Virus record (IMG/VR): IMGVR_UViG_3300045988_163663
Source: a virus
DNA length: 64,000 bases
Strand: one strand, 5' to 3'
Shown here: positions 32,626-55,885 of the stretch, piece after piece
Position numbering within the stretch: the first letter of the stretch is position 1
How the letters are laid out: the number at the start of each line of letters is the position of its first letter
Program-made: the position numbers and the translations under genes
Notes under the pieces: model-generated
What the model saw: the letters and a program-made list of their open reading frames with translations, nothing else
What the model was told of the DNA's origin: nothing
The model's database searches: none

Positions 32626-34290
32626 ATGACAGATTTGAGGACTCTTATTCCAGAAGAAGAAAAGAACCTGCTGCACGATTATATTAAAGAGTACCTTCAT
32701 TCTGATAATTACTGTACAGTAGATGAAATTAATCATCTTCTGCGGTTTTGGGCTGTCGAAAAGCCCGACCTGTATAAGCTGTTGGGCAACAACCTGATGG
32801 TTAAAGACCATATTGCTTATCAGGCATCTGAAGAGGATTTGATGGATAAGTTCAGTGAAATGTATGAAGAAATTTATAATAATCCTGAATTAGCAAACGT
32901 TAAAAAATTCATTGACTCTTACGAGCAGATTACTAATATTTATTATTCTTGGATGGATGCCACTCTTGATAAGGATGAACGTGTTAATTGTTGTAGCATG
33001 ATTGAGCATTGCCTTGATAGTGAATCTCTCGTAGCCAATAAAAATGTGTATATGTTTGATTGGGGTCGCAAATCTGTTACTATTCGCCGTGGTCCGCATG
33101 CAGATACTTCAAAGCCGCTTGAACTGAAGAGTGATATGAAGTTGATGCGAATGATGGCTAAAATTGTCGATTGGTTTGAGCTGGACAAAGAAGCATTTGA
33201 ACAGTTCCGTATTCTTCATTCGCGTGTTTTGAATGATCGTATGATTAATGCTAATATTACATTGTCTATTCATCCGCTTGACTATCTTACTATGAGTGAC
33301 AATGCTTGTGATTGGGAGAGCTGTATGAACTGGTATCAGGGTGGCGATTATCGTCTTGGTACTGTTGAAATGATGAACTCCCCTGTTATCCTTGAAGCAT
33401 ATGTTGAGTCTGAGCATCCTTATTGTCCTATTGATCGTGATAATAGAACTTGGAGCAATAAGCGTTGGCGGTGTCTTTATATTGTTAATAAGGATATTAT
33501 CACTGAAATCAAACAGTATCCTTATAATAACATTTATCTGCGTGACTATGTGCTGAATAAGATTAAGCAGTTGGCTGAACAGAATATGGGCTGGCATTAT
33601 GATGATAAAATGTATGAGGTTTGGCAGAACCAGAATAATGATACTGATTTTGGTCAGGTTTATATCCGCATGAGGACCGGAGCTATGTATAATGATTATT
33701 ATGATAATCATTATGCTTATATCAATCCAGAAGTCAAAGAAGTAGAAGTTTGTTATTCTGGTGTAGCTGAATGTATGTGTTGCGGCAAAGGCTACGAAGC
33801 TGACCCGAGTGGAAATGTAGATGCATTTGTAGAATGTGATAAAGTCGTATGTGCAACCTGCGAAGGCAAAGTCCAGTGCGATGATTGCGGTGCTTGGATT
33901 GATAGTGAAGATGCTTGGTTTTGTAGTGAAGATGGTGCAACTTATTGTAGTTGGTGTGCAGAGGGCCGCACCCAGGTTTGTAGCTGCTGCGGAGAAACTA
34001 AATGGCTTGATTATGATTTCAAGAAGCAGGCTCTTCCATATATGTTTGAAGTAAAAACTCCTAATGGTAAGCATCGTCGAGATATTGGAAATCCGATTGA
34101 TGTCTGTGATGATTGCTATGAAGATTATTGTTTCGATGATGTACCAAAGGAACCAGACTTGTGGGGAGATTTTCAATATATTGATGTTGACAAGGTAGAT
34201 AAGAAGGTATGGGAGCCATTTCTGTCCCTTGAAAGAATTGCTGATGCCAAGGTGCGGCTAAAGGCAACTTACCCTGATGATTATGTTTAG
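32626..34290 (+). CDS. large HPLDY/SCMNW-family protein with C-terminal zinc-ribbons (paralog A)
   Basis: LSIHPLDYLTMSDNACDWESCMNWYQGGDYRLGTVEMMNSP core shared with 39720 and 43959; CMCCG..C..C repeats. Confidence 0.55.
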   Translation: MTDLRTLIPEEEKNLLHDYIKEYLHSDNYCTVDEINHLLRFWAVEKPDLYKLLGNNLMVKDHIAYQASEEDLMDKFSEMYEEIYNNPELANVKKFIDSYEQITNIYYSWMDATLDKDERVNCCSMIEHCLDSESLVANKNVYMFDWGRKSVTIRRGPHADTSKPLELKSDMKLMRMMAKIVDWFELDKEAFEQFRILHSRVLNDRMINANITLSIHPLDYLTMSDNACDWESCMNWYQGGDYRLGTVEMMNSPVILEAYVESEHPYCPIDRDNRTWSNKRWRCLYIVNKDIITEIKQYPYNNIYLRDYVLNKIKQLAEQNMGWHYDDKMYEVWQNQNNDTDFGQVYIRMRTGAMYNDYYDNHYAYINPEVKEVEVCYSGVAECMCCGKGYEADPSGNVDAFVECDKVVCATCEGKVQCDDCGAWIDSEDAWFCSEDGATYCSWCAEGRTQVCSCCGETKWLDYDFKKQALPYMFEVKTPNGKHRRDIGNPIDVCDDCYEDYCFDDVPKEPDLWGDFQYIDVDKVDKKVWEPFLSLERIADAKVRLKATYPDDYV

Positions 34291-34369
34291 TTTAAATTCT
34301 TGCCAAAATTGAATACTCGAAAATTTATAAAAAATTTGATATAATATATATAGAAAGGATGGGAGAGAT

Positions 34370-39719: not shown

Positions 39720-41363
39720 ATGACACCTTATGAAGCATTGACTGCACAAGATAAGGAATATATTACTGAATATATTGAAACATGGGGTGGCGTTAATTCC
39801 CCAATTAAACTCAAAGCATCTCTTGATTATATCCTTCGAGAATGGAATAAGAGTAAACAAACTCTATTTAATATTTTTGGCGAAAAGTTAATGTTGGAGA
39901 AGGAAATCCAGGTTGAAGATGGAGATAACAAAAAAGTAAGAGAAGTTAATGAGTATCTTTATAGCACTAATCCTGGTATCAATTTTATTACAAATCTTCG
40001 TAGATTATTTGAATCTGATACTACTTATTTTGAAAATACTTATGCAACAAGGCATGCAATATATAATTTAATTCAAGCTTATCAACTTTTTACTAATAGA
40101 GTTGTTAAAGGATTTACTTATCACAATAAAGATGGTAAAATAGTTAAAGTTCCAGAAGGAGCTAAGGTAATGAAAGTTCTTCAGAAAATGGCTAAAGAAT
40201 TTGATTTACCTGATTTTGAAATTTTTCGCAATCATATTTCACGTATTACTGAAGTACGTAAATCTAAAATTAAATTTACTTTGTCTATTCATCCCTTGGA
40301 TTATATGACTATGAGCGATAATGCAAATTGTTGGGAAAGTTGCATGAACTGGACTCAAGGACCGGGAAGTTATCGTGCTGGTACTATTGAAATGATGAAT
40401 AGTCCATTAGTTGTTGTAGCATATATTACTACTAAACCTTATTATCCAGCAAATACTTCTATTGAATGGACTTCCAAAAGTTGGAGAGAATTGATTATTG
40501 TTCATCCAAAAGCTATTTGTTCTGTAAAATCTTATCCTTATTACAATATTGCATTTGATAAAGCTCTTGTAAATTGGCTTGCTAATTTGGTTGAAGAAAA
40601 AACCGAATAGCGTTATAATAGAAAAAAGCCACAAGAAAGTTTAGATAGCTGTTCTTATATCGAAGCTTGGCAAGATAAAGAAGATAAGGATAATCGTTTC
40701 CTGTTGGATTTTGAAACAAATGAAATGTATAATGATTTTGGTAATACAGAAAATTATGGAATTTTTTCAATTAATCCACCAGACAATAAATATCGTACAT
40801 TCGCAATTAATTATTCTGGTTTAATGACTTGTATGTGTTGCGGCGAAAATGGTTATTGGTCTGATGACACTGAAATGGTAGTTTGTGAAGACTGTGATCC
40901 ACCTACTTATTGTTATTGTTGTGGCGAACGAGTTAATACAAATGATGCAATTGAAGTAGATGGTGAATGGGTTTGCGAAGATTGTTATAATGATTTACAT
41001 AGATGTTTATGCTGTGAGGATGCTCATTTTGATGAAGATTTCACTACTGTATTTGTTGGACATATTGACAATCAAACTATTAATATTGATTATGATGAGC
41101 ATTATATTTGTAATGAATGTCTTGCCAATAAAGAATATTTAAAGTATCTAGGAGATACTGATATTAGAGCTGAAACAATTCGATTGGATGGCGGTCCTTA
41201 TTATGGTAGGGTGGCTCTCTTAATTGAAGAAGATGATTTAAATGTAGAGGCTAAAAAGATAATTTCTAATGATCCTTATTCTACTATAATTACTGATTAT
41301 ACTTATGCTATTCGTCGTTATCCTGAGCGTTTTTATAGTTACAATAAGTCAATTGCGATTTAA
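39720..41363 (+). CDS. large HPLDY/SCMNW-family protein with zinc-ribbons (paralog B, TAG-containing)
   Basis: FTLSIHPLDYMTMSDNANCWESCMNWTQG; TAG at 40608 is in frame with downstream ORF 40704. Confidence 0.55.
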
Positions 41364-42879: not shown

Positions 42880-43878
42880 ATGGGTAAAAAAGTTTTAGTT
42901 CCTGATTTTACTGAAAATTGTAGAGGGCTTTTGGAAGGGCTATTTAAGATTAGTGAAGTAGGTCTTTTGAAAGCTCTTGGTGATTTTGTATCTAATAAAT
43001 ATTCTAATGTAGAAATTACAGAAGATTATGTATATGCTGAAGGTAATATTCCTGTTATGCTTATTGCACATGTAGATACTGTATTTAGACAGCCAATTCG
43101 TCAATTTACTTATAATGAGAAAAGAGCAGTTTATAAAGGCAAGGAAGGTCTTGGAGCAGACGATAGAGCAGGTGTTTTTGCGATTATTCAGATTTTACGC
43201 AAAAAGTATAGACCTTATGTTCTTTTTACAACAGATGAAGAAATGGGCGGCTATGGGGCACATGTATTTGTTGAAGCACATCCAGTAGCTCCAAATATTA
43301 AGTACATGATTGAGCTTGATAGAGCTGGTGAAAGAGATTGTGTCTTTTACGAGTGTGAAAATTTTACATTTGTAGATTATGTTGAAAGTTTTGGTTTTAG
43401 GCAAGCATTAGGCTCATTCACAGATATTAGTATTATTATGCCTGAATGGGAAATTGCCGGAGTAAATTTATCAGTTGGCTATCATCATGAACATACTCAA
43501 AATGAAGATTTACATATTAGAACATTGTATAATACAATTAATAAAGTATGTAAAATGCTCGATGATATTGAAAATGCAGATAAATATAAGTTTATTCCCA
43601 GTAAAGAATACCTTCAGTGGATTACATTAACTAATAAATATCATATGCCTTATGATTTTGATGATGATAAACTTCTTAATTGTAGTTTTTGTAATCAGTT
43701 GTATTATGAGTGGGAAGATTTCCCTCTTGATATTGATGGAGTAAAGGTTCATGTATGTCCTGAATGCTTGGCTCTTGACCCTAATATTCATCAATGTGAA
43801 AAATGTTATAATTTATTTTATTCAAATAATATGAAAGAAAGAGTATGTAATAAATGTCGAGTCCCTGTTGTAATTTAA
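42880..43878 (+). CDS. M42/M28-like metallopeptidase with C-terminal zinc-ribbons
   Basis: IAHVDTVF, GADDRAGV, TTDEEMGG metal-binding motifs; C-terminal CSFCN...CPEC...CEKC...CNKC. Confidence 0.5.
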   Translation: MGKKVLVPDFTENCRGLLEGLFKISEVGLLKALGDFVSNKYSNVEITEDYVYAEGNIPVMLIAHVDTVFRQPIRQFTYNEKRAVYKGKEGLGADDRAGVFAIIQILRKKYRPYVLFTTDEEMGGYGAHVFVEAHPVAPNIKYMIELDRAGERDCVFYECENFTFVDYVESFGFRQALGSFTDISIIMPEWEIAGVNLSVGYHHEHTQNEDLHIRTLYNTINKVCKMLDDIENADKYKFIPSKEYLQWITLTNKYHMPYDFDDDKLLNCSFCNQLYYEWEDFPLDIDGVKVHVCPECLALDPNIHQCEKCYNLFYSNNMKERVCNKCRVPVVI

Positions 43879-43958
43879 ATGAAATTAAAGAACAAGTAAA
43901 GAAGGTTATTGCCTATTCATAGGGGCTGGATATTAACCTTTTAAATATTGATAAATTA

Positions 43959-45280
43959 ATGAGCGATTGGGAAGAAAATAAATGTAAATTTTATAGTAGA
44001 CTTCCCGGCAATAAATTAATTTATCAAAGTCATACGCCTATTACAATGTCTATTTCAGAAGATGATAAAAAGGCTGAATTAGATTGTTTTATTGATAATA
44101 TTCGTTGGCGTTATAACTTATTTGAGTTAAAAAATTTTGTTGAAAATAATAGAGAAAATTTTTATAATAATATTTTAAGCGAAGATTATCCAATGGATAA
44201 TGGAACTATTATTCCAAAAGGAATGAAAATAATTAAAGCATTTAAATATTTTGTAGAAGATAAAGAAACTCTTACTGAAATACAAGATAAGGCAAGTATG
44301 CTTATTCAAAATACAAAAATTAATGGATATTTTTGTATGTCAGTTCATCCATTGGATTATCTTAGCCTAAGTGAAAACACACATAATTGGCGGTCATGCC
44401 ATGCACTTGATGGAGAATATCGTGCTGGTAATTTATCTTATATGACTGATAATTGTACAATTATATGTTATATTAAGAGCGAACATGACGCAGTTCTGCC
44501 CAGATTTCCAGATGATGTGCCGTGGGCAGATAAGAAGTGGCGTATGCTTCTTCATGTATCTAATGATGATACTATGATTATTTCAGGTCGTCACTATCCT
44601 TATGAAAGTAAAGGCTTACAAGATTTTGCACTTGAATTGTATGAAACATTTTTTGGGCAAGGATATAGTTTTACTGATTGGTGTCATGAAAAATATAATA
44701 CATTTACAGTAAATGATAAGATTATTTCTAATGATTGTCGTTTATTGCCTACTGGATATATTATGGCCCCAGATATTAAGATTATTATTGATCCAAAAAA
44801 TCCTTTACATTATAATGATCCTCTTCATTCTACTGTATATGATTATTGGTTTAGTATTGCTTATAGTGAACCTTATTGGCATGAAGAAGGCATTCCGCAA
44901 GATAAATTAATTCTTCCAAGAACTCGTACTACTACTAAAGTTAATATAGGACATGATGTAAAATGTTGTATTTGTGGTAAAAATGATTGTGTTTTAACAG
45001 ATACAATGCTTTGTATTGATTGCGAACTTAAATATGGTACAGAAGAAACAGAAGATTTTACTTTCTGTAGAGAATGTGGTAGACGTATCTATATTCCTGA
45101 AGCAATATCATTAGATGATGATGATGGTTATGTATGTCGCAATTGCGGAGACAATTATTAGATATGTGATAATTGTAATATGTATTATGATAAAAAAGAT
45201 TTAATTTATGATGAAGAAAACAATGCTTACTATTGTGAAGCTTGTTATGATGAAATTTTATTTGATAGGGAGAATGAATA
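43959..45280 (+). CDS. HPLDY-family protein with zinc-ribbons (paralog C)
   Basis: FCMSVHPLDYLSLSENTHNWRSCHALDGEYRAGNL; TAG at 45159 read through to TAA 45278. Confidence 0.5.
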
Positions 45281-45589
45281 ATGGCAAAAGGTAGTATTGC
45301 TAAAGATGCTGTTGTAGAAAAAATTGCAGAAGCATTTGGTGAAGATTTCCTTGGATCTTATGATAAAAAGTATTATGTGCGAGCTAAAGAAAATGGACAA
45401 TATATTCAGATTGCAATTAGTCTAACTTGTCCAAAAACGCCTGTTGAATCTTTTGGTTCTATGGATTTTGGTAATAATGAACTTAATTTTGAAGATGGAG
45501 CAACAATTCAGCCTGCGAAAAAGGCTACAGAAATTAGTCCAGAAGAAGAAGAAAATTTAAAAGCTTTAATTGAAAAGCTTGGTTTGTAA
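45281..45589 (+). CDS. hypothetical protein
   Basis: ORF 102 aa followed by hairpin terminator AGAGAAAGTCAAattGACTTTCTCT. Confidence 0.45.
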   Translation: MAKGSIAKDAVVEKIAEAFGEDFLGSYDKKYYVRAKENGQYIQIAISLTCPKTPVESFGSMDFGNNELNFEDGATIQPAKKATEISPEEEENLKALIEKLGL

Positions 45590-45696: not shown

Positions 45697-45978
45697 ATGA
45701 AGAAGATTATAATTCCTCAAGAAGAAGTAAATTATCTTTAGAAATTAAATTATGAAATTGAAGCTAGAAAAAATTTATGTCAATTTTTAATTAGACAAAA
45801 TATTAGAAATAAAGCTTTTGATGATTATCATAATGAGTATATAGAATTATTTGCTGAATATGAATTAGCTAAATTAGAATTAGAAAATAATTATATTAAA
45901 CCAGTAATTGGAAATCAAACTTGTAATTGGAATTTAGATTTTTAGACAAACGAGGTAAATATTGATGTTATTTCCTAA
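45697..45978 (+). CDS. small protein upstream of radical SAM gene (TAG-containing)
   Basis: 93 codons with 2 in-frame TAG; overlaps rSAM start by 14 nt. Confidence 0.4.
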
Positions 45979-47305
45979 GATAGTTAATATTCCTGAAGAA
46001 TTTTCTGATTTTATAAGTCGTTTATATTCTAATGATTGCTTAAATTCTTAGGCTGTATTTACATTAACTTTTTAGGTTACAGATGATTGTTGTCTAAATT
46101 GTGTTTATTGTTATCAAGGACATAAAGGAAAACATAAATTATCCTTTAATACAGCTAAATAGATGATTGATTAGATACTAACAAGAGACAGTAAAGTTAT
46201 TAATTATATTGACTCTTATAAAATACCAGGAGTAGTAATAGAATTTATAGGTGGAGAGCCATTTTTAGAAATTGAATTAATTGATTAGATTACTGATTAT
46301 TTTATTAATAAAATGATTGAATTGCGGCATCCTTGGGCCACTAAATATAAAATTTCAATTAGTTCTAATGGTATTTTATATTTTGAACCAAAAGTACAAG
46401 AGTATATTAAAAAAAATAATGAAAATTTAAGTTTATCAATTTCTATTGATGGAAATAAAAAATTACATGATGCTTGTAGAGTTTTCCCTGATGGTAGTGG
46501 TAGTTATGATAAAGCATTGTCCGCCGCATTACATTATAGCCATAATTATAACAAATGGATCGGGAGTAAAATGACTATCTCTCCATTTAATATAGATTAT
46601 TTATATGACGCTGTTTTAGAAATGATAAACAATGGTTATAGTCAAATCAATCTAAATTGTGTGTATGAAAAAGGTTGGGAACTTAACCATGCCACTACAT
46701 TATATTATTAGTTAAAAAAAATTGCTGATTATTTATTAAATAATGATTTGTGGGATAAAGTTTATTTATCTATTTTTTATATTAATGATGGAAGTAAAAA
46801 TTTATCTAATGATAATTGGTGCGGCGGGAATGGTCGTATGTTAGCCTTAAATTGGAAAGGTAAATATTATCCCTGTTTACGTTATATGGAAGATAGCATA
46901 AGTAATCAGCCAGAATATTATATTGGAGATATTTATTAGGGAATAGGCCAAGATAATTTAACCATCAATAGATTAAAAGATTTATCTGAAATAACAGTTA
47001 TTAGTCAATCTCCTCAAAAATGTTTAGATTGTGAAATTTCTGGAGGATGCTCTTGGTGTACAGCTTATAATTATCAAGAAACAGGTAATGTTAATAAAAG
47101 AGTTACTTATATTTGTGATATGCATTATGCTACAGTTCTAGCTTCTTTATATTATTTAAATTCTATTTTAAAAAAAATAAACTCGAATAAACGATTTAAA
47201 TTTAATGGAGATATGGAAAAAGCATTAAAAATTATCTCTTAGGATGAATATAATATAATAAAGGAGGCAATGACAAATGAAAATAGGCACGACAATAACT
47301 TCTGA
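45965..47305 (+). CDS. radical SAM / SPASM-domain peptide maturase (TAG-containing)
   Basis: DDCCLNCVYCYQ (CxxxCxxC), GGEPFLE, C-terminal CGGNG...C...CLDCEISGGCSWC SPASM-type Cys; 6 in-frame TAG; TGA at 47303. Confidence 0.65.
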
Positions 47306-47927
47306 TAGATTCAATGAATTAAAGAAAAAAATAAAGGCTGAATGTTTACGTCGTAAATATATAGGTAGTGTAAGTTCATATGGAGGGACTTCTTATGATT
47401 ATACTACTTAGCCTAATAATGGAAAAGTTATTTCAAAAGAACATATAACAAAACTGGTAGAACCTATGGCGGCAATAAATATTGAAAATCAGAATGAAAA
47501 TATAAATGTTATTAAAGATGATGATTTAAGTACATTAGAGGCAAAAATTACAGCTTATCAAGCTATGGGATTAACTGATTCGAATACTGGATGTTCAGCT
47601 TATTGCACTGGATTATGTTCTACTAGTTGTAGTGAAAGTTGTGGAGTACAATGTCAGGGAACTTGTTTAGGCAGTTGTAAGAATACTTGCCAAGGAGGCT
47701 GCCAAAACACTTGCAGAGGCGGATGTCGAAGCAGTTGTAGTGGCAGTTGTGATGGATGCAGTGGTTCTTGCTCAGGTGGATGCCAGACTGGGTGTAGCGG
47801 ATGCAGCGGTAGCTGTACAAGACATTGTGCTAACGATTGTACTGGATTGTGTGGAGGAAGTTGTTCTGGATTATGCACAAGTTGTACTGGCACATGTAGT
47901 GGAACTGGTAGGAATGAACCATTATAA
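47277..47927 (+). CDS. Cys-rich C-x3-C repeat protein (SCIFF/ranthipeptide-like)
   Basis: AAGGAGG RBS 8 nt upstream; about 30 Cys in CSAYCTGLCSTSCSESCGVQCQGTCLGSC... repeats; one in-frame TAG at 47409; alternative start 47466. Confidence 0.6.
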
Positions 47928-47973: not shown

Positions 47974-48615
47974 ATGTATCTTATACAAAATAATATTTTA
48001 TTTTGTATAAGTGATTATAAAAATATAAACTTTCAAAAATATGATATGGATATTTAGATTTTATCTATTTATGAATATTTATTTCAAAAGTATATTTTAC
48101 ATAAAGATATATTAAAACAATATAAAGGTATAGAATTATATAAAATTATGGAAATTCAAGATAAAATTTTTATTAATAGATATAAATTATTATTGTAGAT
48201 TATTAATAATAATTATAATTTTGATAATTAGTTAATATACACTGATTTTAATAATTTTAATTTTGAACAAAATATTAGTTATATAAATTATTGTTTAAAA
48301 TTACTATTTAATAATTTTAAAAAAATAGATAAACAATTTTGGAAAATTTTAGATTAGATTTATTTTTTAATTAATGGTAAAACTAATTTATTTTTATTGT
48401 TGGGAAATTTTTATTTGAATAAAAGTAATTTATAGCAATTTACTGAAGAAATAAAAAAAATTCCTGGAATTAAAGAATAGCTCTCTTTTAGTTATACAGC
48501 TTTAAATTTAGCTATTGAAATTGATAAAGTTGCAGAAAATAAAAATTATCTTAATGAATTAATTGAAATTATTGATAATCATTCACAAGAAAAAATTTAT
48601 AAATTTGATATTTAA
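47974..48615 (+). CDS. AT-rich hypothetical protein (8 in-frame TAG)
   Basis: No TAA/TGA for 213 codons in roughly 20 percent GC sequence; only TAG interrupts. Confidence 0.45.
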
Positions 48616-48689
48616 TAAAAATTAATATATAATATATATACAAAATAAAGAAAATAAAGACTTTAACAGCAAAGAAATGGACAGTAAAT

Positions 48690-48733
48690 CCGTCGCGAAT
48701 GCTACGCAGGTTCGAATCCTGCCCTCCCCACCA
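48690..48733 (+). ncRNA. tRNA 3'-half-like element (T-arm, acceptor 3' strand, CCA) without upstream 5' half
   Basis: GCAGG-TTCGAAT-CCTGC CCTCCCC A CCA; GGCGGAGG 6 nt downstream; own upstream promoter motif. Confidence 0.35.
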
Positions 48734-48884
48734 CTATATGGCGGAGGTAGGGAAGCGGTTAAACCCAGCGGAACCAAACCAAATAAGTCTTGTTTGAATA
48801 AAATAATTATTTGATTTTTAATAAAAAATATTATATAATATTTATATGAAAAGAGAAAGGCTTTTACAGCAACTTAAACTTTTT

Positions 48885-48959
48885 TCCGTGGTCGAATAAC
48901 TGGATAATTCATCAGAGTTAATTCTGAAAATAAGGATTCAAATTCCTTCCTTGGAGCCA
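48885..48959 (+). tRNA. noncanonical tRNA (6-nt anticodon loop GTTAAT)
   Basis: Acceptor TCCGTGG/CCTTGGA (1 mismatch), D arm GAAT..ATTC, anticodon stem TCAGA/TCTGA, T arm AAGGA-TTCAAAT-TCCTT, GCCA end. Confidence 0.4.
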
Positions 48960-49050
48960 AGTATAAAAAGTCTTGGGTAAATTTCTTAATTTGAAAAAAT
49001 TAAAAAAATATAATATAATATATAAGTAATCAATAAGAAATTAAATAAAT

Positions 49051-49199
49051 GCTCTCGTAGCTCAATTGGTCAGAGCCGGCGACTTATCCAAAATTAGTTT
49101 AAATGGTAAAATAGTTTATGCGCAAGAAAGATGTAAGTTCAAATCTAACATTTTGGGCCAAATCGCCAGATGTGGGTTCAAATCCCGACGGGAGCACCA
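49051..49199 (+). tRNA. tRNA with about 80-nt insertion in anticodon loop
   Basis: GCTCTCG-TA-GCTCaattggtcaGAGC, anticodon stem GGCGA(49078)...TCGCC(49163), T arm and acceptor CGGGAGC-A-CCA. Confidence 0.5.
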
Positions 49200-49465: not shown

Positions 49466-49520
49466 TAAATTTGATTTTTAATAAAAATATTATTATATTA
49501 TATAGAGAGTGAGGGAAAGA

Positions 49521-50480
49521 ATGACTATTATTGAATTATTTGCGGGAATTGGGACATAGATTTCAGCTTTGGTTAAAATTGATCCAAATATTAGATCAAT
49601 AGGTATTAGCGAAATTGATGAACGACCATTGAAAGCATATAAAGTTTTGAATGGTGAATATAATAATTTTGGTGATATCACAAAAATTGATATTTTACCC
49701 TATGCAGATATTTGGACTTATTCTTTCCCTTGTACTGATTTATCTATTGCAGGGAAGCAAGAAGGTTTTCAAGGAAAAAATTCTTCATTAATTTATGAGG
49801 TATATCGTCTCTTGCTTTCTTCTCCAAAGCCAAAAATTCTTTTAATGGAAAATGTGGCCAATATTTGTAATAATACTTTTATGCCAAAATTTCAAGAGTG
49901 GATTAATAGTTTAGCTGAATTAGGTTATGTATCTAGCTGGAAGAAAATAAAAGCTTATGAATATGGCGGAGCAACTATTAGAGATCGTGTATTCATGGTT
50001 TCAGTAATTTCTCCTTTAAAAAAGTTTATTTTCCCTTTAGCTGAAAATGTTAAAACTACTTTAAAAGATTTTTTAGAGCCAATTAACGAAGAATATTTCA
50101 TTGATAGTTATGATGGCCCAAGTGATATTACTACACCATATTATAATGGAGCTAAAAAACTCTGTGATTATAAAAATGGTGGTCAAGGAAATCGAATTTA
50201 TTCTATATTTGGGCAAGGAGTTACATTAACTGCTTCTGGTGGAGGAAAAGCCGGATCAAGCGGTGGTTTGTATCTTCGTAATAATAGTATTTATAAACTT
50301 ACTCCAATTGAGATTTGTAAAATAATGGGTTGGACTAAAGCAGAAGCAGAAAAGATTTGTTCTGTTTTAACCCCTAGAGAAGTGGGTTTTTGCTTGGGCA
50401 ATGCCATTGATAGAAATGTGTTAATTCATATTTTTAAAGGGATAAAGGAACAATATTATGATGAATTGGGAGAAAAGTGA
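49521..50480 (+). CDS. DNA (cytosine-5)-methyltransferase (TAG-containing)
   Basis: ELFAGIGT(Q) motif I, FPCTDLS motif IV, ENV motif VI, RDRVF motif VIII, GNAI motif X; TAG at 49557. Confidence 0.7.
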
Positions 50481-51084
50481 AAAGAAAGCATTTGAATGGT
50501 TTAAAAATAACTATGATAATGATGCGATTTATCAAGGACGTAATGATTCTACTATTTCAGATATTTATTCTCCTTTATATAATTGCTATATTGAAGTAAA
50601 AGATATTACTAATGGTGCTCGATGCGGGCAATTTACTAAAAGTACCATCAGTAATAACCCATATGCTGAAGCTATTTATTTGGGTAAAAATGATGAAGAA
50701 ACTTGTATAAATTTTGTAAAAGAGCATTATAGAGCTAAACGAGTAGGAGCTTTTATCATTATTAATAATAATAATATTTCTCTTGTGGCTTTTGATGATT
50801 TTTTTAATAATTATACTTTTGAAATTCAAAAACCTTATTGCAAAAGAAGCGGTACTTCATCGGCTCCAATTAAAGATAAAGAAACTCTTTTAAAATTTAA
50901 TACAGCATTTTATCAAGAAAATAATAAAGTTTTTTGTTTTGATCAAAATTTATTTGGTACTTATTGTTCAGTATTTAATCCTTTTGATTATTTTATCAGT
51001 AAAACAACTGGTGAATTAAGAAAAAGAAGTAATACTAATAATATGACTTGGCATATTGTAATTAAAGAAAAATTGAAAAATTAA
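50458..51084 (+). CDS. hypothetical protein, possible PD-(D/E)xK nuclease partner of the methyltransferase
   Basis: ATGATG overlaps MTase stop; SDIYSPLYNCYIEVKD resembles D...(E)xK. Confidence 0.35.
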   Translation: MMNWEKSEKKAFEWFKNNYDNDAIYQGRNDSTISDIYSPLYNCYIEVKDITNGARCGQFTKSTISNNPYAEAIYLGKNDEETCINFVKEHYRAKRVGAFIIINNNNISLVAFDDFFNNYTFEIQKPYCKRSGTSSAPIKDKETLLKFNTAFYQENNKVFCFDQNLFGTYCSVFNPFDYFISKTTGELRKRSNTNNMTWHIVIKEKLKN

Positions 51085-51218: not shown

Positions 51219-51500
51219 ATTGGTCTTACACATGGGGTTTCCGATTTGAACTAGGCAGATTAGTCACCTGCCGTTGGCAATAGACCAATTAAAAATAAAC
51301 TGAGGCAAAGGGAAATCGGGTAGTTATGATGAACTTCATAATGAAATCCTCTTGTAATCAAGCTAATTGGGAGAGAGGTAGCACGGGAACGGGGAGAAGC
51401 GTGCTATAAAAGGTGAAATACTTCTTTCCACCATAAGCCGGTGTAGCCGAATGGCATAGGCGAATGGAATTGAACTGAAAATTTTTTGGTTCAATTCCAT
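51219..51500 (+). ncRNA. structured RNA candidate
   Basis: TTGGTCT...AGACCAA, GGCAG-9-CTGCC, TAGCACG-14-CGTGCTA, GGAATTGAAC-13-GTTCAATTCC; no ORF. Confidence 0.3.
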
Positions 51501-51548
51501 TAATGAATAATTTTTAATTTCTAATATATTATGAAAGGAGAGATTGTT

Positions 51549-52016
51549 ATGGCTCGTTCAGATATTTTAGAAAAAGAAAAAGAAATTCGTTAGTGGATAA
51601 ACGAAGAAAAATCTAAACGTTATATATGTGAATAGTTGCATTGTAAACCTGAAACTTTAAATTCTTATTTGGAGAAAATGAATATTGAATATAAGGGATA
51701 GCCTTATAAAAAAGGATAGAATAAAAATCCTCGATGTTATAAGCCAGCTATTTATTATATTGATAATCATAAGTATATTAGCTCTTCTGTTTTAAGACAA
51801 AAATTAGTAAAAGATGGATTGAAAAAAGACAAATGTGAAATTTGTGGTATTTCTATGTGGCAAGGAATTAAATTACCTTTAGAATTACATCATAAAAATG
51901 GAAACCATTTTGATAATGATTTAAATAATCTACAAATTTTATGTCCTAATTGTCATTCAATTCAAAATGGAAATAGTGGAGCAAATATCGGTAAATACGC
52001 GGGATTGCTGGAATAG
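51549..52016 (+). CDS. HNH homing endonuclease (TAG-containing)
   Basis: CEICG...HHKNGNHFDNDLNNLQILCPNCH; 5 in-frame TAG upstream. Confidence 0.55.
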
Positions 52017-52083
52017 GTAGACAACTCATCTTTAGACGGTGAGGCCGACAGGTGTGAGGGTCCGAGTCCCTCATCCCGCACCA
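51999..52083 (+). tRNA. tRNA-Leu (TAG anticodon), type II
   Basis: GCGGGAT/ATCCCGC, anticodon loop TTTAGAC, long variable arm, CCA. Confidence 0.6.
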
Positions 52084-52373
52084 ATCATATTCAAAAGAAA
52101 AATTATTGTTGTGATTGTGGAAAAGAGATATGTTTAAAAGCTATTAGATGTAAATCTTGTGCATCTAAATTTAGACAAAATTCTAAATCTCCAGATAGAG
52201 AAATTTTAAAAGAATTAATTAGAACTACACCATTTGTAACTATAGGGAAAATGTATGAAGTTTCTGATAATGCTGTCAGAAAATGGTGTAAAAATTATGA
52301 TTTACCTTATTAGTCATTAAAAATTAAAAAAATTTCTGATGAAGATTGGAAAAATATTTAATATATAAGGTGT

Positions 52374-52401
52374 GAAGGTTCGAATCCTTTCACCGGTACC
52401 A
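52374..52401 (+). ncRNA. tRNA 3'-half-like element
   Basis: GAAGG-TTCGAAT-CCTTT CACCGGT A CCA; no 5' half found. Confidence 0.3.
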
Positions 52402-52894: not shown

Positions 52895-53027
52895 GCGCCA
52901 GTGGCCAAGTGGTATGGCACCTGCCTTTGTGGAATTGATGTAAGTAGCATTTTAATGTATTGGTTCAAATCCAATATTCCGCACCATAAGCAGGGCAACG
53001 CGGGTTCGATCCCCGCCTGGCGCACCA
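52895..53027 (+). tRNA. tRNA-Gln-like (UUG) with about 58-nt insertion in anticodon loop
   Basis: GCGCCAG...CTGGCGC-A-CCA; D arm GCCAAGTGGTATGGC as in tRNA-Gln; CCTGC(52920)+CTTTG ... AA+GCAGG(52990) gives loop CTTTGAA after removing insert. Confidence 0.5.
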
Positions 53028-54419: not shown

Positions 54420-54511
54420 TTCGTTTTCTCGATATAAGCGATTTTGTTACATAGAACTTGATAGAGCGTTCTATTAATCTGGTTAGATTAAGTTTTATAA
54501 CTATCATATTT

Positions 54512-54587
54512 GGGGCACGGGACTGCATGGAGTGGTCGTCTCCCTTGCAAGGAGAAAAGCAGATGAGTTCGATTCTCATGTGTTCCA
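54512..54587 (+). tRNA. tRNA-Ala (TGC)
   Basis: G3:U70, loop CTTGCAA, T arm ATGAG-TTCGATT-CTCAT; no CCA. Confidence 0.55.
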
Positions 54588-54726
54588 GTCATCTAAGATC
54601 CACAACCGCCACGAGGTAGATGATGGGTAATGCTAATAGTGGACAAAAATAAAAATCGGGCAAAGTTAATTAAACTCCTCAAAAATTTTGCTAAATATAA
54701 TAGAAGGAAAAAAGGAGTTGAATTAA

Positions 54727-55359
54727 ATGCCTAGAAAATTAACTCAAGAAGAATTTGAACAAAGAGTTTATAAATGTGTAGGGGATAAATATTTTGTTAT
54801 AAGTGAATATAAAGGAAAATCTAAACCAATAGATTTAAAATGCAATATTCATGATATTGTTTTTCAAGCATCCGCAGAATGTTTTATGCGAGGTCCAAAA
54901 GAAGTAAGATGCTCTTGCCCTAAATGTTCAGAAGAAAAGAAAAATGAAAAATTTTCTGCAAATAGAACTGAATTAGAATGTGCTTATTGTGGAAAGAAAT
55001 TTATTCGTCCAAATTCTAAATTGAATAATTCAAAAAGTGGAATATATTTTTGCTGTAGAGAACATAAAGATTTAGCTCAACGGATAGAGTTTGGTTTGAA
55101 AGAAATTCAACCAAATCATTATGGAAATAATATTGAAAGTATATATACTTATCGTAAAAATGCTTTTAAATATTATCCTCATAAATGTGCTATCTGTGGT
55201 TGGGATGAAGATAAAGATATTTTAGAAGTTCATCATATTAATGAAAATAGAGAACACAATGAATTAGAGAATTTAATCATATTATGTCCTATTTGTCATA
55301 AAAAATTAACTTCTCATAAATATAAATTAATTAATAGGGAAAAAATTATTTCTTATTAA
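54727..55359 (+). CDS. HNH homing endonuclease
   Basis: CAICGWDEDKDILEVHHINENREHNELENLIILCPICH. Confidence 0.6.
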   Translation: MPRKLTQEEFEQRVYKCVGDKYFVISEYKGKSKPIDLKCNIHDIVFQASAECFMRGPKEVRCSCPKCSEEKKNEKFSANRTELECAYCGKKFIRPNSKLNNSKSGIYFCCREHKDLAQRIEFGLKEIQPNHYGNNIESIYTYRKNAFKYYPHKCAICGWDEDKDILEVHHINENREHNELENLIILCPICHKKLTSHKYKLINREKIISY

Positions 55360-55382
55360 TTTATGAAAAATTTATAATATTT

Positions 55383-55425
55383 GGAGCTTGAGGCAAAGCG
55401 AGTTCGACTCTCGCAAGTTCCACCA
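55383..55425 (+). ncRNA. 43-nt tRNA-like minihelix (acceptor stem + T arm only)
   Basis: GGAGCTT-gaggcaaa-GCGAG-TTCGACT-CTCGC-AAGTTCC-A-CCA. Confidence 0.3.
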
Positions 55426-55477
55426 TTAAGTGTGATATATTCCAAACACGTAGGGTGGTAAGCACACGGGTTTTCTA

Positions 55478-55553
55478 GAAGCCTTCCCTATGAATATGGA
55501 TGCATAGCTCAGTTGGTAGAGCAATTGACTGTTAATCAATGGGTCGGAGGATC
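55478..55553 (+). tRNA. tRNA-Asn (GTT)
   Basis: GGATGCA-TA-GCTCAGTTGGTAGAGC, loop CTGTTAA, GCCA end; unusual T loop ATCATAC. Confidence 0.6.
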
Positions 55554-55677
55554 ATACCCTTCTGCATCCGCCACCGCACTCGCGGAAAACATACAACTCA
55601 ACTGGTGCATAGAACTTGATGGAGCGTTCTATTAGTCTGATGCCTGCATTAGATTAAGTTTTATAACCATCATATTT

Positions 55678-55751
55678 GGGGACATAGTTTATGGTAGGAA
55701 AACGTTGAATTTAATTCAAAGTCGAGGGTGCGATTCCCTCTGGCTCCACCA
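55678..55751 (+). tRNA. tRNA with anticodon loop ATTTAAT (UUA), shortened 15-nt anticodon arm
   Basis: GGGGACA-TA-GTTT..AAAC, TTGA-ATTTAAT-TCAA, T arm GAGGG-TGCGATT-CCCTC, TGGCTCC-A-CCA; one acceptor mismatch. Confidence 0.35.
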
Positions 55752-55885
55752 TTTATGAAAGACAATACAGCAATTATAAATTTGCTTTGGGAGCCGTGTG
55801 TTGTAGGTTCGAGTCCTACTGTCTGGTTGAAGATCGGATATAGCGTAATTGGTAGCGCAACGTATAAAAATTGTCTTGTTAATAT

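What the first reader, a model, noticed from the sequence alone, without database searches (positions are those of the whole stretch)
48690..48790. Several orphan tRNA 3'-half-like elements, one possibly permuted
At 48706-48733 there is a perfect T arm, acceptor 3' strand and CCA (GCAGG-TTCGAAT-CCTGC-CCTCCCC-A-CCA) with no matching GGGGAGG within 200 nt upstream. Six nt downstream lies GGCGGAGGTAGGGAAGCGG, which looks like a 5' acceptor/D-region (one mismatch). That order, 3' half then 5' half, is seen in circularly permuted tRNA genes and two-piece tmRNA. Similar 3'-only elements occur at 52374-52401 and 55803-55826. A 43-nt acceptor+T-arm minihelix is at 55383-55425.
Basis: seen in the sequence. 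Interest (0 to 1): 0.7.

Follow-up and report, generated by a model that had tools for sequence, protein, structure and literature searches.

The report
Phage Y RNA mimicking tRNA-Tyr
The "back-to-front tRNA" at 48.7 kb is a small phage non-coding RNA of the Y RNA (YrlA) type, a tRNA mimic that partners with a Ro60-like protein; it is neither a permuted tRNA gene nor a tmRNA, and two of the other "orphan halves" are debris of tRNA genes cut by homing-endonuclease cassettes.

Summary
48706-48733 is a T arm, a 3' acceptor strand and ACCA. No GGGGAGG occurs on the + strand anywhere in the window. The matching 5' acceptor strand and D arm follow 7 nt downstream.

The whole unit (48655-48793) is conserved in more than 20 phage contigs, and compensatory changes support every helix that varies. 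Its ends pair into a stem that carries a conserved ACAGCAA motif. The interior is a circularly permuted tRNA-Tyr-like cloverleaf.

This is the architecture of YrlA-type Y RNAs. The only GenBank phage match lies about 90 nt upstream of a TROVE (Ro60) gene. In nine related contigs the element lies under 100 nt upstream of a DUF2828/DUF7788 gene, whose AlphaFold model matches only Ro60 structures. A mycobacteriophage "Ro-like" gene is followed by RNAs with the same stem and ACAGCAA motif.

The window holds two more such RNAs (48855-48976 and 55757-55879). 52374-52401 and 55383-55425 are remnants of tRNA genes disrupted by HNH cassettes.

No Ro-like gene lies in the window. In the two closest contigs it sits about 40 kb downstream.

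The kind is known. The variant features are an encoded ACCA and a tRNA-Tyr anticodon loop.

The parts
48605..48633 (+). Sigma-70-like promoter of Y1 (TTGATA, 17 nt spacer, TATAAT). The predicted start is about 48640.
   Evidence: Consensus scan, 11 of 12 matches. The same promoter-like block precedes Y2, the next tRNA and several ORFs. Function is inferred.
48655..48793 (+). Y1, the whole YrlA-type Y RNA with a tRNA-Tyr-like permuted domain.
   Evidence: Covariance model R1 scores 159.5 bits, E 1.9e-39. Conserved in loci L003-L020 and L069-L071.
48657..48663 (+). 5' strand of the terminal (Y) stem, AAGACTT. It pairs with 48785-48791.
   Evidence: Compensatory change T-A to C-G in 8 of 18 sequences. 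L005 and L001 have different but still paired sequences.
48666..48672 (+). Conserved ACAGCAA motif on the 5' strand side of the Y stem. Putative contact site for the Ro-like protein.
   Evidence: Kept in all the gut-phage relatives, including the divergent L005, but not in the Rhizobium phage, which has UGCGAAUG at that place. Kept in distant DUF2828 loci L052, L054 and L041; L055 has UUCAGCAA. Kept in three RNAs next to the Ro-like gene of mycobacteriophage MiniLon. Binding is not tested.
48677..48693 (+). ATGGA-CAGTAAA-TCCGT, a tRNA-Tyr anticodon stem-loop look-alike (anticodon GTA). TCCGT is also the 3' strand of the long-range 'anticodon stem'.
   Evidence: GTAAA is invariant in the clade. 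Positions 32-33 read CT in 13 copies, CA in 8 and TT in 1. The bona fide phage tRNA-Tyr in L020 and L016 has the arm GCGGA-CTGTAAA-TCCGT; Y1 matches both stem strands and the loop of most relatives, while the window itself has A33.
48694..48705 (+). Variable-region mimic, CGCGAATGCTAC (class II length).
   Evidence: ARAGORN drawing of the rejoined sequence. The short GC...GC stem is weakly supported (L005 has GCC/GGC).
48706..48722 (+). T arm, GCAGG-TTCGAAT-CCTGC.
   Evidence: 100% paired in 18 sequences, with 3 pairs showing double changes.
48723..48733 (+). 3' strand of the acceptor-stem mimic (CCTCCCC), then discriminator A and CCA.
   Evidence: Read from the sequence. ACCA is kept in 17 of 18 aligned sequences, and the Rhizobium phage has CCCA.
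48734..48740 (+). 7-nt loop (CTATATG) that closes the acceptor-stem mimic. The predicted RNase P site lies between 48740 and 48741.
   Evidence: Read from the sequence. Cleavage is inferred from M. smegmatis YrlA, which has a 7-bp acceptor stem and is cut by RNase P (PMC4201824).
48741..48747 (+). 5' strand of the acceptor-stem mimic, GCGGAGG.
   Evidence: Six of seven pairs are kept. The C.C mismatch at 2:71 is conserved in 15 of 18 sequences and is C.U in one more. It is a true pair in L005 and L001.
48750..48766 (+). D arm, GGG-AAGCGGTTAAA-CCC. It has the GG needed for the T-loop contact.
   Evidence: Invariant except for one loop base (C or T) across all 18 sequences, including Rhizobium phage Y65.
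48768..48772 (+). GCGGA, the 5' strand of the long-range 'anticodon stem'. It pairs with 48689-48693.
   Evidence: 100% paired, with 3 of 5 pairs showing double changes (L018, L005, L001). The rival local hairpin has no compensatory change.
48785..48791 (+). 3' strand of the terminal (Y) stem, AAGTCTT.
   Evidence: See 48657-48663.
48811..48839 (+). Sigma-70-like promoter of Y2.
   Evidence: 10 of 12 matches.
48855..48976 (+). Y2, a second Y-like RNA. It has the same kind of terminal stem (48857-48864 with 48967-48974) and ACAGCAA (48866-48872). It encloses a tRNA-like cloverleaf in normal order with a 6-nt 'anticodon' loop (48912-48927) and GCCA (48956-48959).
   Evidence: Weak R1 hit of 14 bits. 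The L070 variant keeps all helices: all five T-stem pairs and the D stem are exchanged, and one anticodon-stem pair is C-G to T-A. The topology matches the description of D. radiodurans Yrn1 (PMC4201824).
55757..55879 (+). Y3, a third Y-like RNA of the YrlA topology. Parts are the stem 55760-55766 with 55870-55876, ACAGCAA 55767-55773, the T arm 55803-55819, a closed acceptor stem-loop 55820-55840 without CCA, and the D arm 55843-55858.
Evidence: R1 scores 32.3 bits, E 2e-6. Coordinates.
52374..52401 (+). 3' remnant (T arm, acceptor 3' strand, ACCA) of a class I tRNA(UAG). Its 5' remnant is 51437-51466.
   Evidence: The tRNA is intact in the close relative L003 (3346-3271, minus strand). In the window 51467-52373 replaces its anticodon loop, 3' anticodon strand and variable region.
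55383..55425 (+). The 'minihelix'. 55398-55425 is the 3' end of a tRNA-Ala(UGC). 55383-55397 is foreign DNA from an HNH cassette, and its GGAGCTT happens to pair with AAGTTCC.
   Evidence: The intact tRNA-Ala with an identical 3' part and downstream flank is in L085, the closest contig. No other copy of the minihelix exists in IMG/VR.

Best explanation
48655-48793 encodes a roughly 140-nt phage non-coding RNA of the Y RNA class, YrlA topology.

Anatomy:
- It is probably transcribed from its own sigma-70-like promoter (inferred).
- Its 5' and 3' ends pair into a 7-bp stem. This is shown by covariation.
- The motif ACAGCAA follows the stem on the 5' strand. It is the likely docking site for the phage's Ro60-like ring protein of the DUF2828/DUF7788 type. 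That protein is encoded next to the RNA in related phages and about 40 kb downstream in the two closest relatives. Docking is inferred from linkage and conservation.
- The interior folds as a tRNA whose acceptor stem is closed by a loop and whose anticodon stem opens into the Y stem. This is shown by covariation.

What is unusual is that the mimic is specifically tRNA-Tyr-like. It has a class II variable region, A73, an encoded CCA after a 7-bp acceptor stem, and the anticodon-loop sequence C(U/A)GUAAA.

Inferred mode of action:
- By analogy with M. smegmatis YrlA, RNase P should cut 5' of G48741 and 3' trimming should expose ACCA. The result would be a two-piece RNA held together by three helices.
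- The RNP would then use the tRNA-like module to recruit tRNA-binding or RNA-decay enzymes, such as PNPase in known Ro/Y RNA machines, during infection.
For: 1. Structure. There are 27 pairs in 5 helices. 93.6% of cells are paired. Twelve pairs show changes on both sides, and 0 of 500 shuffles reach this. Slid controls give 36-56% paired. The long-range stem TCCGT/RCGGA is 100% paired with 3 compensatory pairs. The local hairpin alternative has none.

2. Homology to a Y RNA locus. The only phage GenBank match (77% over T arm, acceptor stem-loop and D arm) is unannotated DNA about 90 nt upstream of the TROVE gene of Rhizobium phage Y65.

3. Linkage.
- In nine IMG/VR contigs the element ends under 100 nt upstream of a DUF2828+DUF7788 ORF on the same strand.
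- In five others the ORF lies 1.5-6 kb downstream on the same strand, and in L005 about 0.8 kb upstream.
- In the two contigs with near-identical elements the gene is 40-44 kb downstream on the same strand.

4. The DUF2828 protein is Ro60-like. The AF2 model has pLDDT 69.7. The ten best Foldseek PDB hits are all Ro60/TROVE over the full length, with E 2.5e-7 to 9e-4. GenBank homologues at 36% identity are annotated 'Ro-like RNA binding protein'.

5. The same module occurs elsewhere. Mycobacteriophage MiniLon has three tandem stem+ACAGCAA RNAs directly after its Ro-like gene, one with the T, acceptor stem-loop, D order (42 bits, E 3e-9). Distant DUF2828 loci have them upstream. There are 63 further model hits in 82 loci.

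6. The definition of YrlA and the RNase P/CCA precedent come from PMC4201824.
Against: - No Ro60-like gene (TROVE or DUF2828) is present in the 64-kb window (tblastn; Pfam on nine large ORFs). The partner in this phage is therefore inferred from relatives.
- The canonical YrlA motif GNCGAAN0-1G is not matched. ACAGCAA stands in its place.
- Single-sequence folding prefers another structure (-39.3 kcal/mol, against -25.2 for the tRNA-like fold; z = -2.6).
- The acceptor mimic carries a conserved C.C mismatch.
- There is no expression, binding or cleavage data.
- In L002 the 5' part of the element is replaced by a normal tRNA-Leu while the DUF2828 gene remains. The RNA is therefore dispensable in at least one genome.
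Confidence: 0.77

Rival explanations
1. It is a genuine circularly permuted tRNA-Tyr gene. The transcript would be joined at 48772/48682, by circularisation or trans-ligation using the phage RNA ligase, and then opened at the acceptor end. The product would be a decoding tRNA-Tyr.
For: - Rejoining the halves gives an ARAGORN tRNA-Tyr(GTA) with all standard tertiary-contact bases.
- The anticodon arm matches that of the bona fide phage tRNA-Tyr in L020 and L016.
- No other tRNA-Tyr is found in the window's array.
- CCA is encoded.
- An ATP-dependent RNA ligase ORF lies at 19108-20517.
Against: - The window lineage has A33 instead of the near-universal U33, in 8 of 22 copies.
- The C2.C71 mismatch is conserved.
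- There is no bulge-helix-bulge motif or other known splice signal at 31/32.
- Phages with a normal tRNA-Tyr keep the element as well (L016, L020).
- Family members with the same stem and ACAGCAA (Y3, MiniLon, L052-L055) have no anticodon loop and often no CCA.
- 'Type B' permutations of the family give no sensible anticodons.
Confidence: 0.07
2. It is a free-standing tRNA-Tyr decoy or sponge that works without any Ro-like protein. It would, for example, soak up a host anticodon nuclease, TyrRS or a modification enzyme. The stem and ACAGCAA would serve only stability or processing.
For: - In the window lineage the element is unlinked from the Ro-like gene, which lies about 40 kb away in relatives.
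- The Tyr-specific features are conserved.
- Phage tRNAs are known to counter tRNA-targeting defences (general knowledge).
Against: - ACAGCAA and the stem recur precisely in RNAs that flank Ro-like genes in unrelated phages.
- There is tight adjacency in nine contigs.
- Most family members are not Tyr-like.
Confidence: 0.1
3. It is debris. The 3' end of one decayed tRNA gene abuts the 5' end of the next (a 'dimeric tRNA' artefact), and it has no function of its own.
For: - The array does contain real tRNA remnants (52374-52401 and 55398-55425).
- Chen et al. warn that tandem tRNAs can mimic YrlA.
- L002 shows exactly such a junction.
Against: - There is a dedicated promoter-like site.
- Leader and trailer are conserved and co-vary.
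- The two 'halves' are complementary in both the acceptor and the anticodon stems.
- The unit is conserved across phage clades whose flanks differ.
Confidence: 0.03
4. It is a two-piece (permuted) tmRNA.
For: The gene order, with acceptor 3' strand and CCA upstream of the acceptor 5' strand, is that of permuted ssrA. There is a faint Rfam match to tmRNA_permuted of 15.3 bits.
Against: - The score is far below the cut-off of 47.
- ARAGORN finds no tmRNA.
- Only about 50 nt follow the 5' strand, with no resume codon, tag ORF or pseudoknots.
- A complete D arm and variable arm are present, which tmRNA lacks.
Confidence: 0.01

Closest known systems
YrlA-type bacterial and phage Y RNAs (Chen et al. 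2014, RNA 20:1715, PMC4201824), including those of mycobacteriophages
   Same: - A terminal 5'/3' stem with a conserved 5'-strand motif.
- Interior order V, T arm, acceptor stem-loop, D arm.
- Conserved tRNA tertiary-contact bases.
- Encoded on the same strand near a Ro60-like gene in relatives.
- A 7-bp acceptor mimic, as in M. smegmatis YrlA, which is cut by RNase P and ends in CCA.
   Different: - The motif is ACAGCAA, not GNCGAAN0-1G.
- ACCA is fully encoded.
- A tRNA-Tyr anticodon-loop sequence and a class II variable region are present, whereas YrlA is described as mimicking only the D arm, T arm and acceptor stem.
- The partner protein is of the DUF2828/DUF7788 type.
- In this lineage the RNA sits in a tRNA array about 40 kb from the protein gene.
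The unannotated element upstream of the TROVE gene of Rhizobium phage RHph_Y65 (MN988525, 139405-139488)
   Same: 77% identical over the T arm, acceptor stem-loop and D arm. The D arm is identical except for one loop base. CCA follows the acceptor mimic. There are long-range 'anticodon' and terminal stems.
   Different: It carries UGCGAAUG (the canonical CGAA type) instead of ACAGCAA. It sits next to a canonical TROVE protein. It has no Tyr anticodon loop. The Ro-binding module appears to have been exchanged together with the protein type.
D. radiodurans Yrn1 (a Y RNA with the tRNA-like part in normal order)
   Same: The window's Y2 (48855-48976) has the Y stem attached at the acceptor position, D and T arms in tRNA order, and a 5-bp 'anticodon' stem with a 6-nt loop. 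This is as described for Yrn1.
   Different: There is no sequence similarity. Y2 has the ACAGCAA motif and a complete D arm.
Circularly permuted tRNA genes (Cyanidioschyzon merolae, Thermofilum) and split tRNAs (Nanoarchaeum)
   Same: The gene order is 3' part, then CCA, a short linker, then 5' part. Leader and trailer pair with each other.
   Different: Those are matured by the BHB splicing endonuclease and a ligase into decoding tRNAs. Here there is no BHB, the setting is a bacteriophage, position 33 is degenerate, and the element belongs to a family of non-decoding mimics.
Two-piece tmRNA (alpha-proteobacteria, cyanobacteria)
   Same: Permuted acceptor and T-arm order. Probable RNase P cleavage into two base-paired pieces.
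   Different: No mRNA-like domain or pseudoknots. It has a D arm and a variable arm. It fails the tmRNA models.
Free-standing homing endonucleases in phage tRNA clusters (for example T4 SegB)
   Same: This explains the remnants at 52374-52401 and 55398-55425. HNH ORFs are inserted into tRNA genes of the array, and flanking sequence is replaced.
   Different: Each cassette here brings a substitute tRNA with the same anticodon (Leu-UAG, Ala-UGC). One HNH ORF reads in frame through its tRNA.

Membership tests
YrlA-type Y RNA | The 5' and 3' ends pair into a stem (the Ro-binding module). | tested here: met
   48657-48663 pairs with 48785-48791. 89.5% of cells are paired, and 3 of 7 pairs show double changes.
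YrlA-type Y RNA | Conserved GNCGAAN0-1G motif near the 5' end (PMC4201824). | tested here: inconclusive
   The literal consensus is not matched (AGCAAAG has 2 of 6 specified positions wrong). A different invariant motif, ACAGCAA, occupies the same place. It is shared with RNAs flanking the Ro-like gene of mycobacteriophage MiniLon and other DUF2828 loci. The Rhizobium phage homologue next to a canonical TROVE gene has UGCGAAUG.
YrlA-type Y RNA | tRNA-like domain in the order (V), T arm, acceptor stem-loop, D arm, with conserved T-loop and D-loop bases. | tested here: met
   T arm 48706-48722, acceptor stem-loop 48723-48747, D arm 48750-48766. Covariation. U8, A14, G15/C48, G18G19, T54-Psi55-C56 and A58 equivalents are read from the sequence.
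YrlA-type Y RNA | Encoded near a Ro60 orthologue on the same strand (within about 4 kb). | tested here: inconclusive
   Not met in the window itself, which has no TROVE or DUF2828 gene. Met in nine related contigs (under 100 nt), in L005, and in five more at 1.5-6 kb. The distance is 40-44 kb in the two closest contigs.
YrlA-type Y RNA | Bound by the Ro60 protein. Carries tRNA modifications (Psi55, D). | not testable with these tools
   Needs RIP or EMSA and modification mapping.
Ro60/TROVE protein family (the partner, DUF2828/DUF7788) | HEAT-repeat ring plus a C-terminal vWA domain. | tested here: met
   The AF2 model of P0002 has an all-helical N-terminal part and an alpha/beta C-terminal part. 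The top 10 Foldseek PDB hits are all Ro60/TROVE (9kop, 9l5y, 2nvo, 1yvr, 1yvp, 2i91, 9nen), with probability 1.0. Model confidence is moderate (pLDDT 69.7, TM 0.34-0.52). The Pfam TROVE model itself does not hit.
Circularly permuted tRNA gene | The rejoined halves form a canonical tRNA. | tested here: met
   ARAGORN calls tRNA-Tyr(GTA), 84 nt, with the junction at 31/32.
Circularly permuted tRNA gene | Bulge-helix-bulge (or other known splice) motif at the junction, and a host with the splicing endonuclease. | tested here: not met
   Leader and trailer form a plain 7-bp stem 12-25 nt away from the junction. No BHB can be drawn. The context is a bacteriophage with sigma-70-like promoters.
Circularly permuted tRNA gene | Decoding-competent anticodon loop (U33, purine 37) under selection. 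| tested here: not met
   Position 33 is A in the window and in 8 of 22 copies. Positions 34-38 are conserved.
Two-piece tmRNA | Match to tmRNA models, a tag reading frame and pseudoknots. | tested here: not met
   ARAGORN finds none. Rfam tmRNA_permuted scores 15.3 bits against a cut-off of 47, and beta_tmRNA 12 against 84.

The most novel reading that the evidence does not exclude
Y1 is not just a generic tRNA-shaped handle. It is a deliberately tRNA-Tyr-specific, RNase P-processed two-piece mimic. Its free ACCA end and exposed GUA 'anticodon' would let it be recognised, and perhaps charged, by TyrRS. Alternatively it could be recognised by queuosine or anticodon-targeting enzymes, including host tRNA-Tyr-cleaving defence nucleases. 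It would deliver those enzymes to, or hide them behind, the phage Ro60-like ring. Y RNAs of phages would then be programmable, tRNA-identity-specific adaptors. The three topologies seen here would be variations on that theme: ends at the Y stem, ends at the acceptor stem, and Y stem on the acceptor.
Probability: 0.12. Interest if true: 0.8.

Novelty: new variant of a known kind. Interest (0 to 1): 0.45.

Why it matters
What the tRNA-like domain of bacterial Y RNAs is for is still unknown. Three things here bear on that question.

- This is a version that copies one particular tRNA. It has the Tyr anticodon loop, a class II variable arm, A73 and an encoded CCA. That gives a concrete handle, because one can ask whether TyrRS, Tgt, RNase P or a tRNA-Tyr-directed nuclease binds it.
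- The widespread phage DUF2828/DUF7788 proteins (694 GenBank phage records) are Ro60-like. They come with RNAs carrying their own signature, a stem followed by ACAGCAA, which differs from the CGAA motif of canonical TROVE partners. This makes such RNAs easy to annotate. Gene finders currently miss them or miscall them as intron-containing tRNAs.
- For annotation of phage tRNA arrays in general, 'orphan halves' can be either Y RNAs or scars of homing-endonuclease cassettes.

Tried and rejected
- Rfam at gathering and at E<=10 gave nothing relevant at the locus. Rfam also gives nothing for the Rhizobium phage element, so it has no YrlA model.
- tmRNA was rejected.
- I looked for a Ro partner in the window. 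tblastn with the Y65 TROVE protein and with two DUF2828 proteins found nothing. Pfam on nine large ORFs found none, and found an RNA ligase, SAM synthetase, a radical-SAM enzyme and Mtd_N tail-fibre proteins instead.
- phmmer of a DUF2828 protein against PDB sequences gave no hit. Structure comparison was needed.
- A literature search for DUF2828 found nothing functional. The supplements of Chen et al. are not held.
- Single-sequence MFE folding does not recover the cloverleaf.
- A pattern search for the 55383-55425 minihelix in IMG/VR gave 0 hits. Comparison with L085 then showed it to be a truncated tRNA-Ala.
- My first idea was that 51437-51466 and 52374-52401 were exons around a clean intron. 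This was rejected because the anticodon loop and the 3' stem strand are missing and are replaced by the cassette.
- I considered that the stem+ACAGCAA inserts in 'type B' RNAs are true tRNA introns. This was rejected because removing them leaves no consistent anticodon loops.
- One Pfam call failed because of in-frame TAG codons.
Full report
**Context.** The window is AT-rich phage DNA. Almost all genes from 20 kb onward are on the + strand. TAG is used as an in-frame sense codon from about 25 kb onward. A dense tRNA array lies at 48.6-57 kb. ARAGORN finds 12 tRNAs there and Rfam finds 12, and the two sets overlap only in part.

**The observation.**
- 48706-48733 reads GCAGG-TTCGAAT-CCTGC-CCTCCCC-A-CCA.
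- After CTATAT comes GGCGGAGGTAGGGAAGCGG.
- GGGGAGG does not occur on the + strand anywhere in the window.
- GCGGAGG (48741-48747) pairs with CCTCCCC, with one C.C mismatch.
- After a complete D arm (48750-48766), GCGGA (48768-48772) pairs with TCCGT (48689-48693) upstream of the variable region.
- Joining the downstream part to the upstream part gives an ARAGORN tRNA-Tyr(GTA) of class II.

The '3' half then 5' half' order is real.

**Relatives.**
- blastn against 50,697 phage records gave one locus. It is unannotated DNA about 90 nt upstream of the TROVE (Ro60) gene of Rhizobium phage RHph_Y65. It has the same order: T arm, 3' acceptor strand, CCA, loop, 5' acceptor strand, D arm.
- A pattern taken from the two sequences found 19 IMG/VR loci in contigs of 44-201 kb.
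- The same pattern found three MAG contigs binned as Clostridium or Eubacteriales. This is a weak host hint.

**Conservation and structure.** The whole unit is conserved, not only the tRNA-like core. In order, it consists of:
- the leader AAGACYTT followed by ACAGCAA;
- ATGGA-CWGTAAA-TCCGT;
- the variable region and the T arm;
- CCTCCCC-ACCA;
- a 6-7-nt loop;
- GCGGAGG and the D arm;
- RCGGA;
- the trailer AAG(T/G)TCT.

On an 18-sequence alignment the five-helix model has 93.6% of cells paired. Twelve pairs show changes on both sides. None of 500 shuffles reaches this, and slid controls fall to 36-56%.

The long-range 'anticodon stem' is 100% paired, with three compensatory pairs. The competing local hairpin ATGGA/TCCGT has none, and it breaks in L018, L005 and L001.

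Single-sequence folding does not find the cloverleaf. The MFE is -39.3 kcal/mol, against -25.2 for the tRNA-like fold. This is a caveat, although tRNA-like folds depend on tertiary contacts.

**Identification.** The architecture is a terminal stem with a 5'-strand motif, then V, T, an acceptor stem closed by a loop, then D. That is how Chen et al. 2014 define YrlA, the tRNA-mimicking Y RNA bound by bacterial Ro60 (PMC4201824). They report YrlA-like RNAs in 254 bacteria and 22 phages. They also report that M. smegmatis YrlA, which has a 7-bp acceptor mimic, is cut by RNase P and ends in CCA. Rfam has no model for this family. The Rhizobium phage locus gives nothing either.

**The protein partner.**
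- In nine of the IMG/VR contigs the element ends less than 100 nt upstream of a 467-511-aa ORF on the same strand. In five others the ORF lies 1.5-6 kb downstream, and in L005 about 0.8 kb upstream.
- Pfam calls the ORF DUF2828 + DUF7788.
- An AlphaFold2 model of a family member (pLDDT 69.7) has a helical-repeat N-terminal part and an alpha/beta C-terminal part. Its ten best Foldseek matches in the PDB are all Ro60/TROVE proteins over the full length. They include Thermus phage phiLo Ro60, D. radiodurans Rsr, and Xenopus and human Ro60, with E from 2.5e-7 to 9e-4. Isolated vWA domains follow only after these.
- The family occurs in 694 GenBank phage records. Mycobacteriophage members at 36% identity are annotated 'Ro-like RNA binding protein'. 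Canonical TROVE occurs in 87 records.
- Two papers had already noted Ro60-like proteins of this kind next to suspected Y RNAs. One concerns Bas63 gp130, which counters the Ppl defence (PMC11482910). The other concerns Listeria phage CKA15 (PMC12282133).

**The ACAGCAA signature.** A covariance model (R1) built from 15 units found the following.
- In mycobacteriophage MiniLon, three tandem RNAs lie directly after the Ro-like gene. Each has a GGAC.../...GUCC stem followed by ACAGCAA. The middle one has the T, acceptor stem-loop, D order (42 bits, E 3e-9).
- Comparable RNAs lie upstream of DUF2828 genes in distant contigs L052, L054, L041 and L055.
- There are 63 further hits in 82 loci.
- About 11 of 47 distinct hits have N-CCA after the acceptor mimic.

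The Rhizobium phage element sits next to a canonical TROVE gene and has UGCGAAUG (the CGAA type) at the corresponding place. The motif therefore appears to track the protein type. This is inference.

**What the window itself contains.**
- No TROVE or DUF2828 gene is present.
- In the two contigs whose element is nearly identical (3300029858_000001 and 3300045988_164919), the DUF2828 gene lies 44 and 40 kb downstream on the same strand. In the window that would be beyond base 64000.
- R1 finds a second YrlA-type RNA at 55757-55879 (32 bits, E 2e-6). It has the stem AGACAAT/ATTGTCT, ACAGCAA, a T arm, a closed acceptor stem-loop without CCA, and a D arm.
- 48855-48976 has its own promoter-like site, a related stem and ACAGCAA. 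It encloses a tRNA-like cloverleaf in normal order with a 6-nt 'anticodon' loop, which is the topology described for D. radiodurans Yrn1. The L070 variant keeps every helix through compensatory changes.

**The other two elements.**
- 52374-52401 is the 3' end of a class I tRNA(UAG) that is intact in the close relative L003. In the window, 51467-52373 replaces its anticodon loop, its 3' anticodon strand and its variable region. That segment is a cassette with an HNH ORF and a class II tRNA-Leu(UAG).
- 55398-55425 is the 3' end of a tRNA-Ala(UGC) that is intact in L085. The apparent 5' strand GGAGCTT belongs to an inserted cassette (another tRNA-Ala(UGC) plus an HNH ORF) and pairs by accident or by convergence.

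**What is unusual about Y1.**
- It copies tRNA-Tyr specifically. It has a class II variable region, A73, G1-C72, an encoded CCA after a 7-bp stem, and C(U/A)GUAAA.
- The stem strands GCGGA and TCCGT, and the CTGTAAA loop of most relatives, are those of the genuine phage tRNA-Tyr in L020 and L016.
- Position 33 is A in the window lineage, in 8 of 22 copies. A C.C mismatch at 2:71 is conserved. Phages with a normal tRNA-Tyr keep the element. These points argue against a decoding role.
- RNAs in other contigs have the circularly permuted form of the same design. Their ends are at the acceptor stem, and a hairpin plus ACAGCAA replaces the anticodon loop. ARAGORN miscalls them as intron-containing tRNAs with implausible anticodons. 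This again points to mimicry, not translation.

**Mechanism.**
- Shown: the fold, the family and the linkage.
- Inferred: transcription from the promoter at 48605-48633; docking of the Ro-like ring on the stem and ACAGCAA; RNase P cleavage 5' of G48741 and trimming to ACCA, giving a two-piece RNA; recruitment of tRNA-binding or RNA-decay enzymes, as in the Ro-Y RNA-PNPase machines of Deinococcus, Salmonella and phage phiLo (PMC4201824, PMC12135203).

**Verdict.** This is a YrlA-type phage Y RNA, which is a known kind. It is a new variant in that it is a tRNA-Tyr-specific mimic with an encoded CCA, it pairs with a DUF2828-type Ro protein through an ACAGCAA module, and in this lineage it is embedded in the tRNA array far from the protein gene.

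Noticed in passing
window 49051-49199 (insert 49085-49157) and 52895-53027 (insert 52927-52984): tRNA-Trp(CCA) and tRNA-Met(CAT) each carry a short insert (73 and 58 nt) directly after U33. Both inserts fold as tRNA-like minihelices, with a 7-bp stem and a T-arm-like hairpin with a TTCAAAT loop. A discriminator follows, and a CCA that runs into exon 2. The closing helix co-varies across relatives: CCAAAAT/ATTTTGG in the window, G.U in L003, and CCAAGAT/ATCTTGG in L070 and L085. The inserts are too small for group I introns. A possible route is excision by RNase P and a 3' tRNA-processing nuclease, then sealing by the phage RNA ligase. This is untested, and I found nothing like it in the literature search.
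   Followed up: partly
window 51467-52373: An HNH homing-endonuclease cassette is inserted into a tRNA(UAG) gene. The 270-codon ORF (51549-52361, six in-frame TAG) reads in frame straight through an 85-nt class II tRNA-Leu(UAG) gene (51999-52083, codons 151-179). That tRNA sits between the HNH domain and a zinc-ribbon/HTH tail. The cassette thus brings a substitute tRNA with the same anticodon as the gene it destroys.
   Followed up: partly
window 54511-55607: This is a second cassette absent from L003. It holds an odd tRNA-Ala(UGC) (54511-54588), an HNH ORF (54727-55359), the truncated resident tRNA-Ala (55398-55425) and tRNA-Asn. It is flanked by a direct repeat of about 70 nt (54446-54513 and 55607-55677).
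   Followed up: partly
window about 25000-64000; tRNA at 55678-55751: TAG is used as a sense codon in many late-region ORFs. Reading TAG as sense lengthens ORFs, for example 8 in-frame TAGs in 45965-47305. Rfam scores 55678-55748 as a tRNA (48.5 bits). It has the anticodon loop ATTTAAT (anticodon UUA), so it is a candidate stop-codon suppressor. No tRNA with a CUA anticodon was seen in the window.
   Followed up: no
window 19108-20517: An ORF with an RNA ligase domain (PF09414, E 3.8e-7) and a PHA02142 OB-fold domain. It is an ATP-dependent RNA ligase, which fits an RNA-repair or tRNA-processing theme alongside the Y RNAs.
   Followed up: no
window 45965-47305 and 47277-47927: A radical-SAM / 4Fe-4S enzyme ORF (PF04055, PF13353) is followed by an ORF whose C-terminal 110 residues or so are an extremely Cys-rich repeat (…CSTSCSESCGVQCQGTCLGSCKNTCQGGCQNTC…). 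This looks like a maturase plus precursor-peptide pair in a phage.
   Followed up: no
window 32626-34344, 39720-41363, 43854-45281: Three large paralogous ORFs (475-572 aa) share motifs such as SIHPLDY(L/M)(T/S)(M/L)S(D/E)N…W(E/R)SC and C-terminal CxxC clusters. None has a Pfam match.
   Followed up: no
loci L086, L108, L148, L152, L155, L164 and others (for example L108 9442-9565): These are tRNA-shaped RNAs whose anticodon loop is replaced by a hairpin followed by ACAGCAA. They are the exact circular permutation of the YrlA-type design, with ends at the acceptor stem and often with CCA. Several occur per locus. ARAGORN miscalls them as intron-containing tRNAs with odd anticodons.
   Followed up: partly
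L005 3600-3860 and 7994-9034: Two adjacent tRNAs share an insert in the anticodon region (a 48-nt intron in ARAGORN's one call) with the common core ACGCAAACTGAYAAGTTTGTATTCAGCA. They lie just upstream of the divergent Y RNA. The same locus encodes a CCA-adding-enzyme-like protein (PF01743).
   Followed up: no
L002 4285-4441: The 5' two-thirds of the Y RNA are replaced by a normal tRNA-Leu(CAA). Only the 5' acceptor strand, D arm and trailer remain in front of the DUF2828 gene. This is a natural recombinant or pseudogene of the element.
   Followed up: no
window 49505-51070: A C5 DNA-methyltransferase-like ORF (49521-50480) and a second ORF (50458-51084) lie between the tRNA-Trp and tRNA-Phe genes. 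Both are absent from the otherwise collinear relative L003.
   Followed up: no
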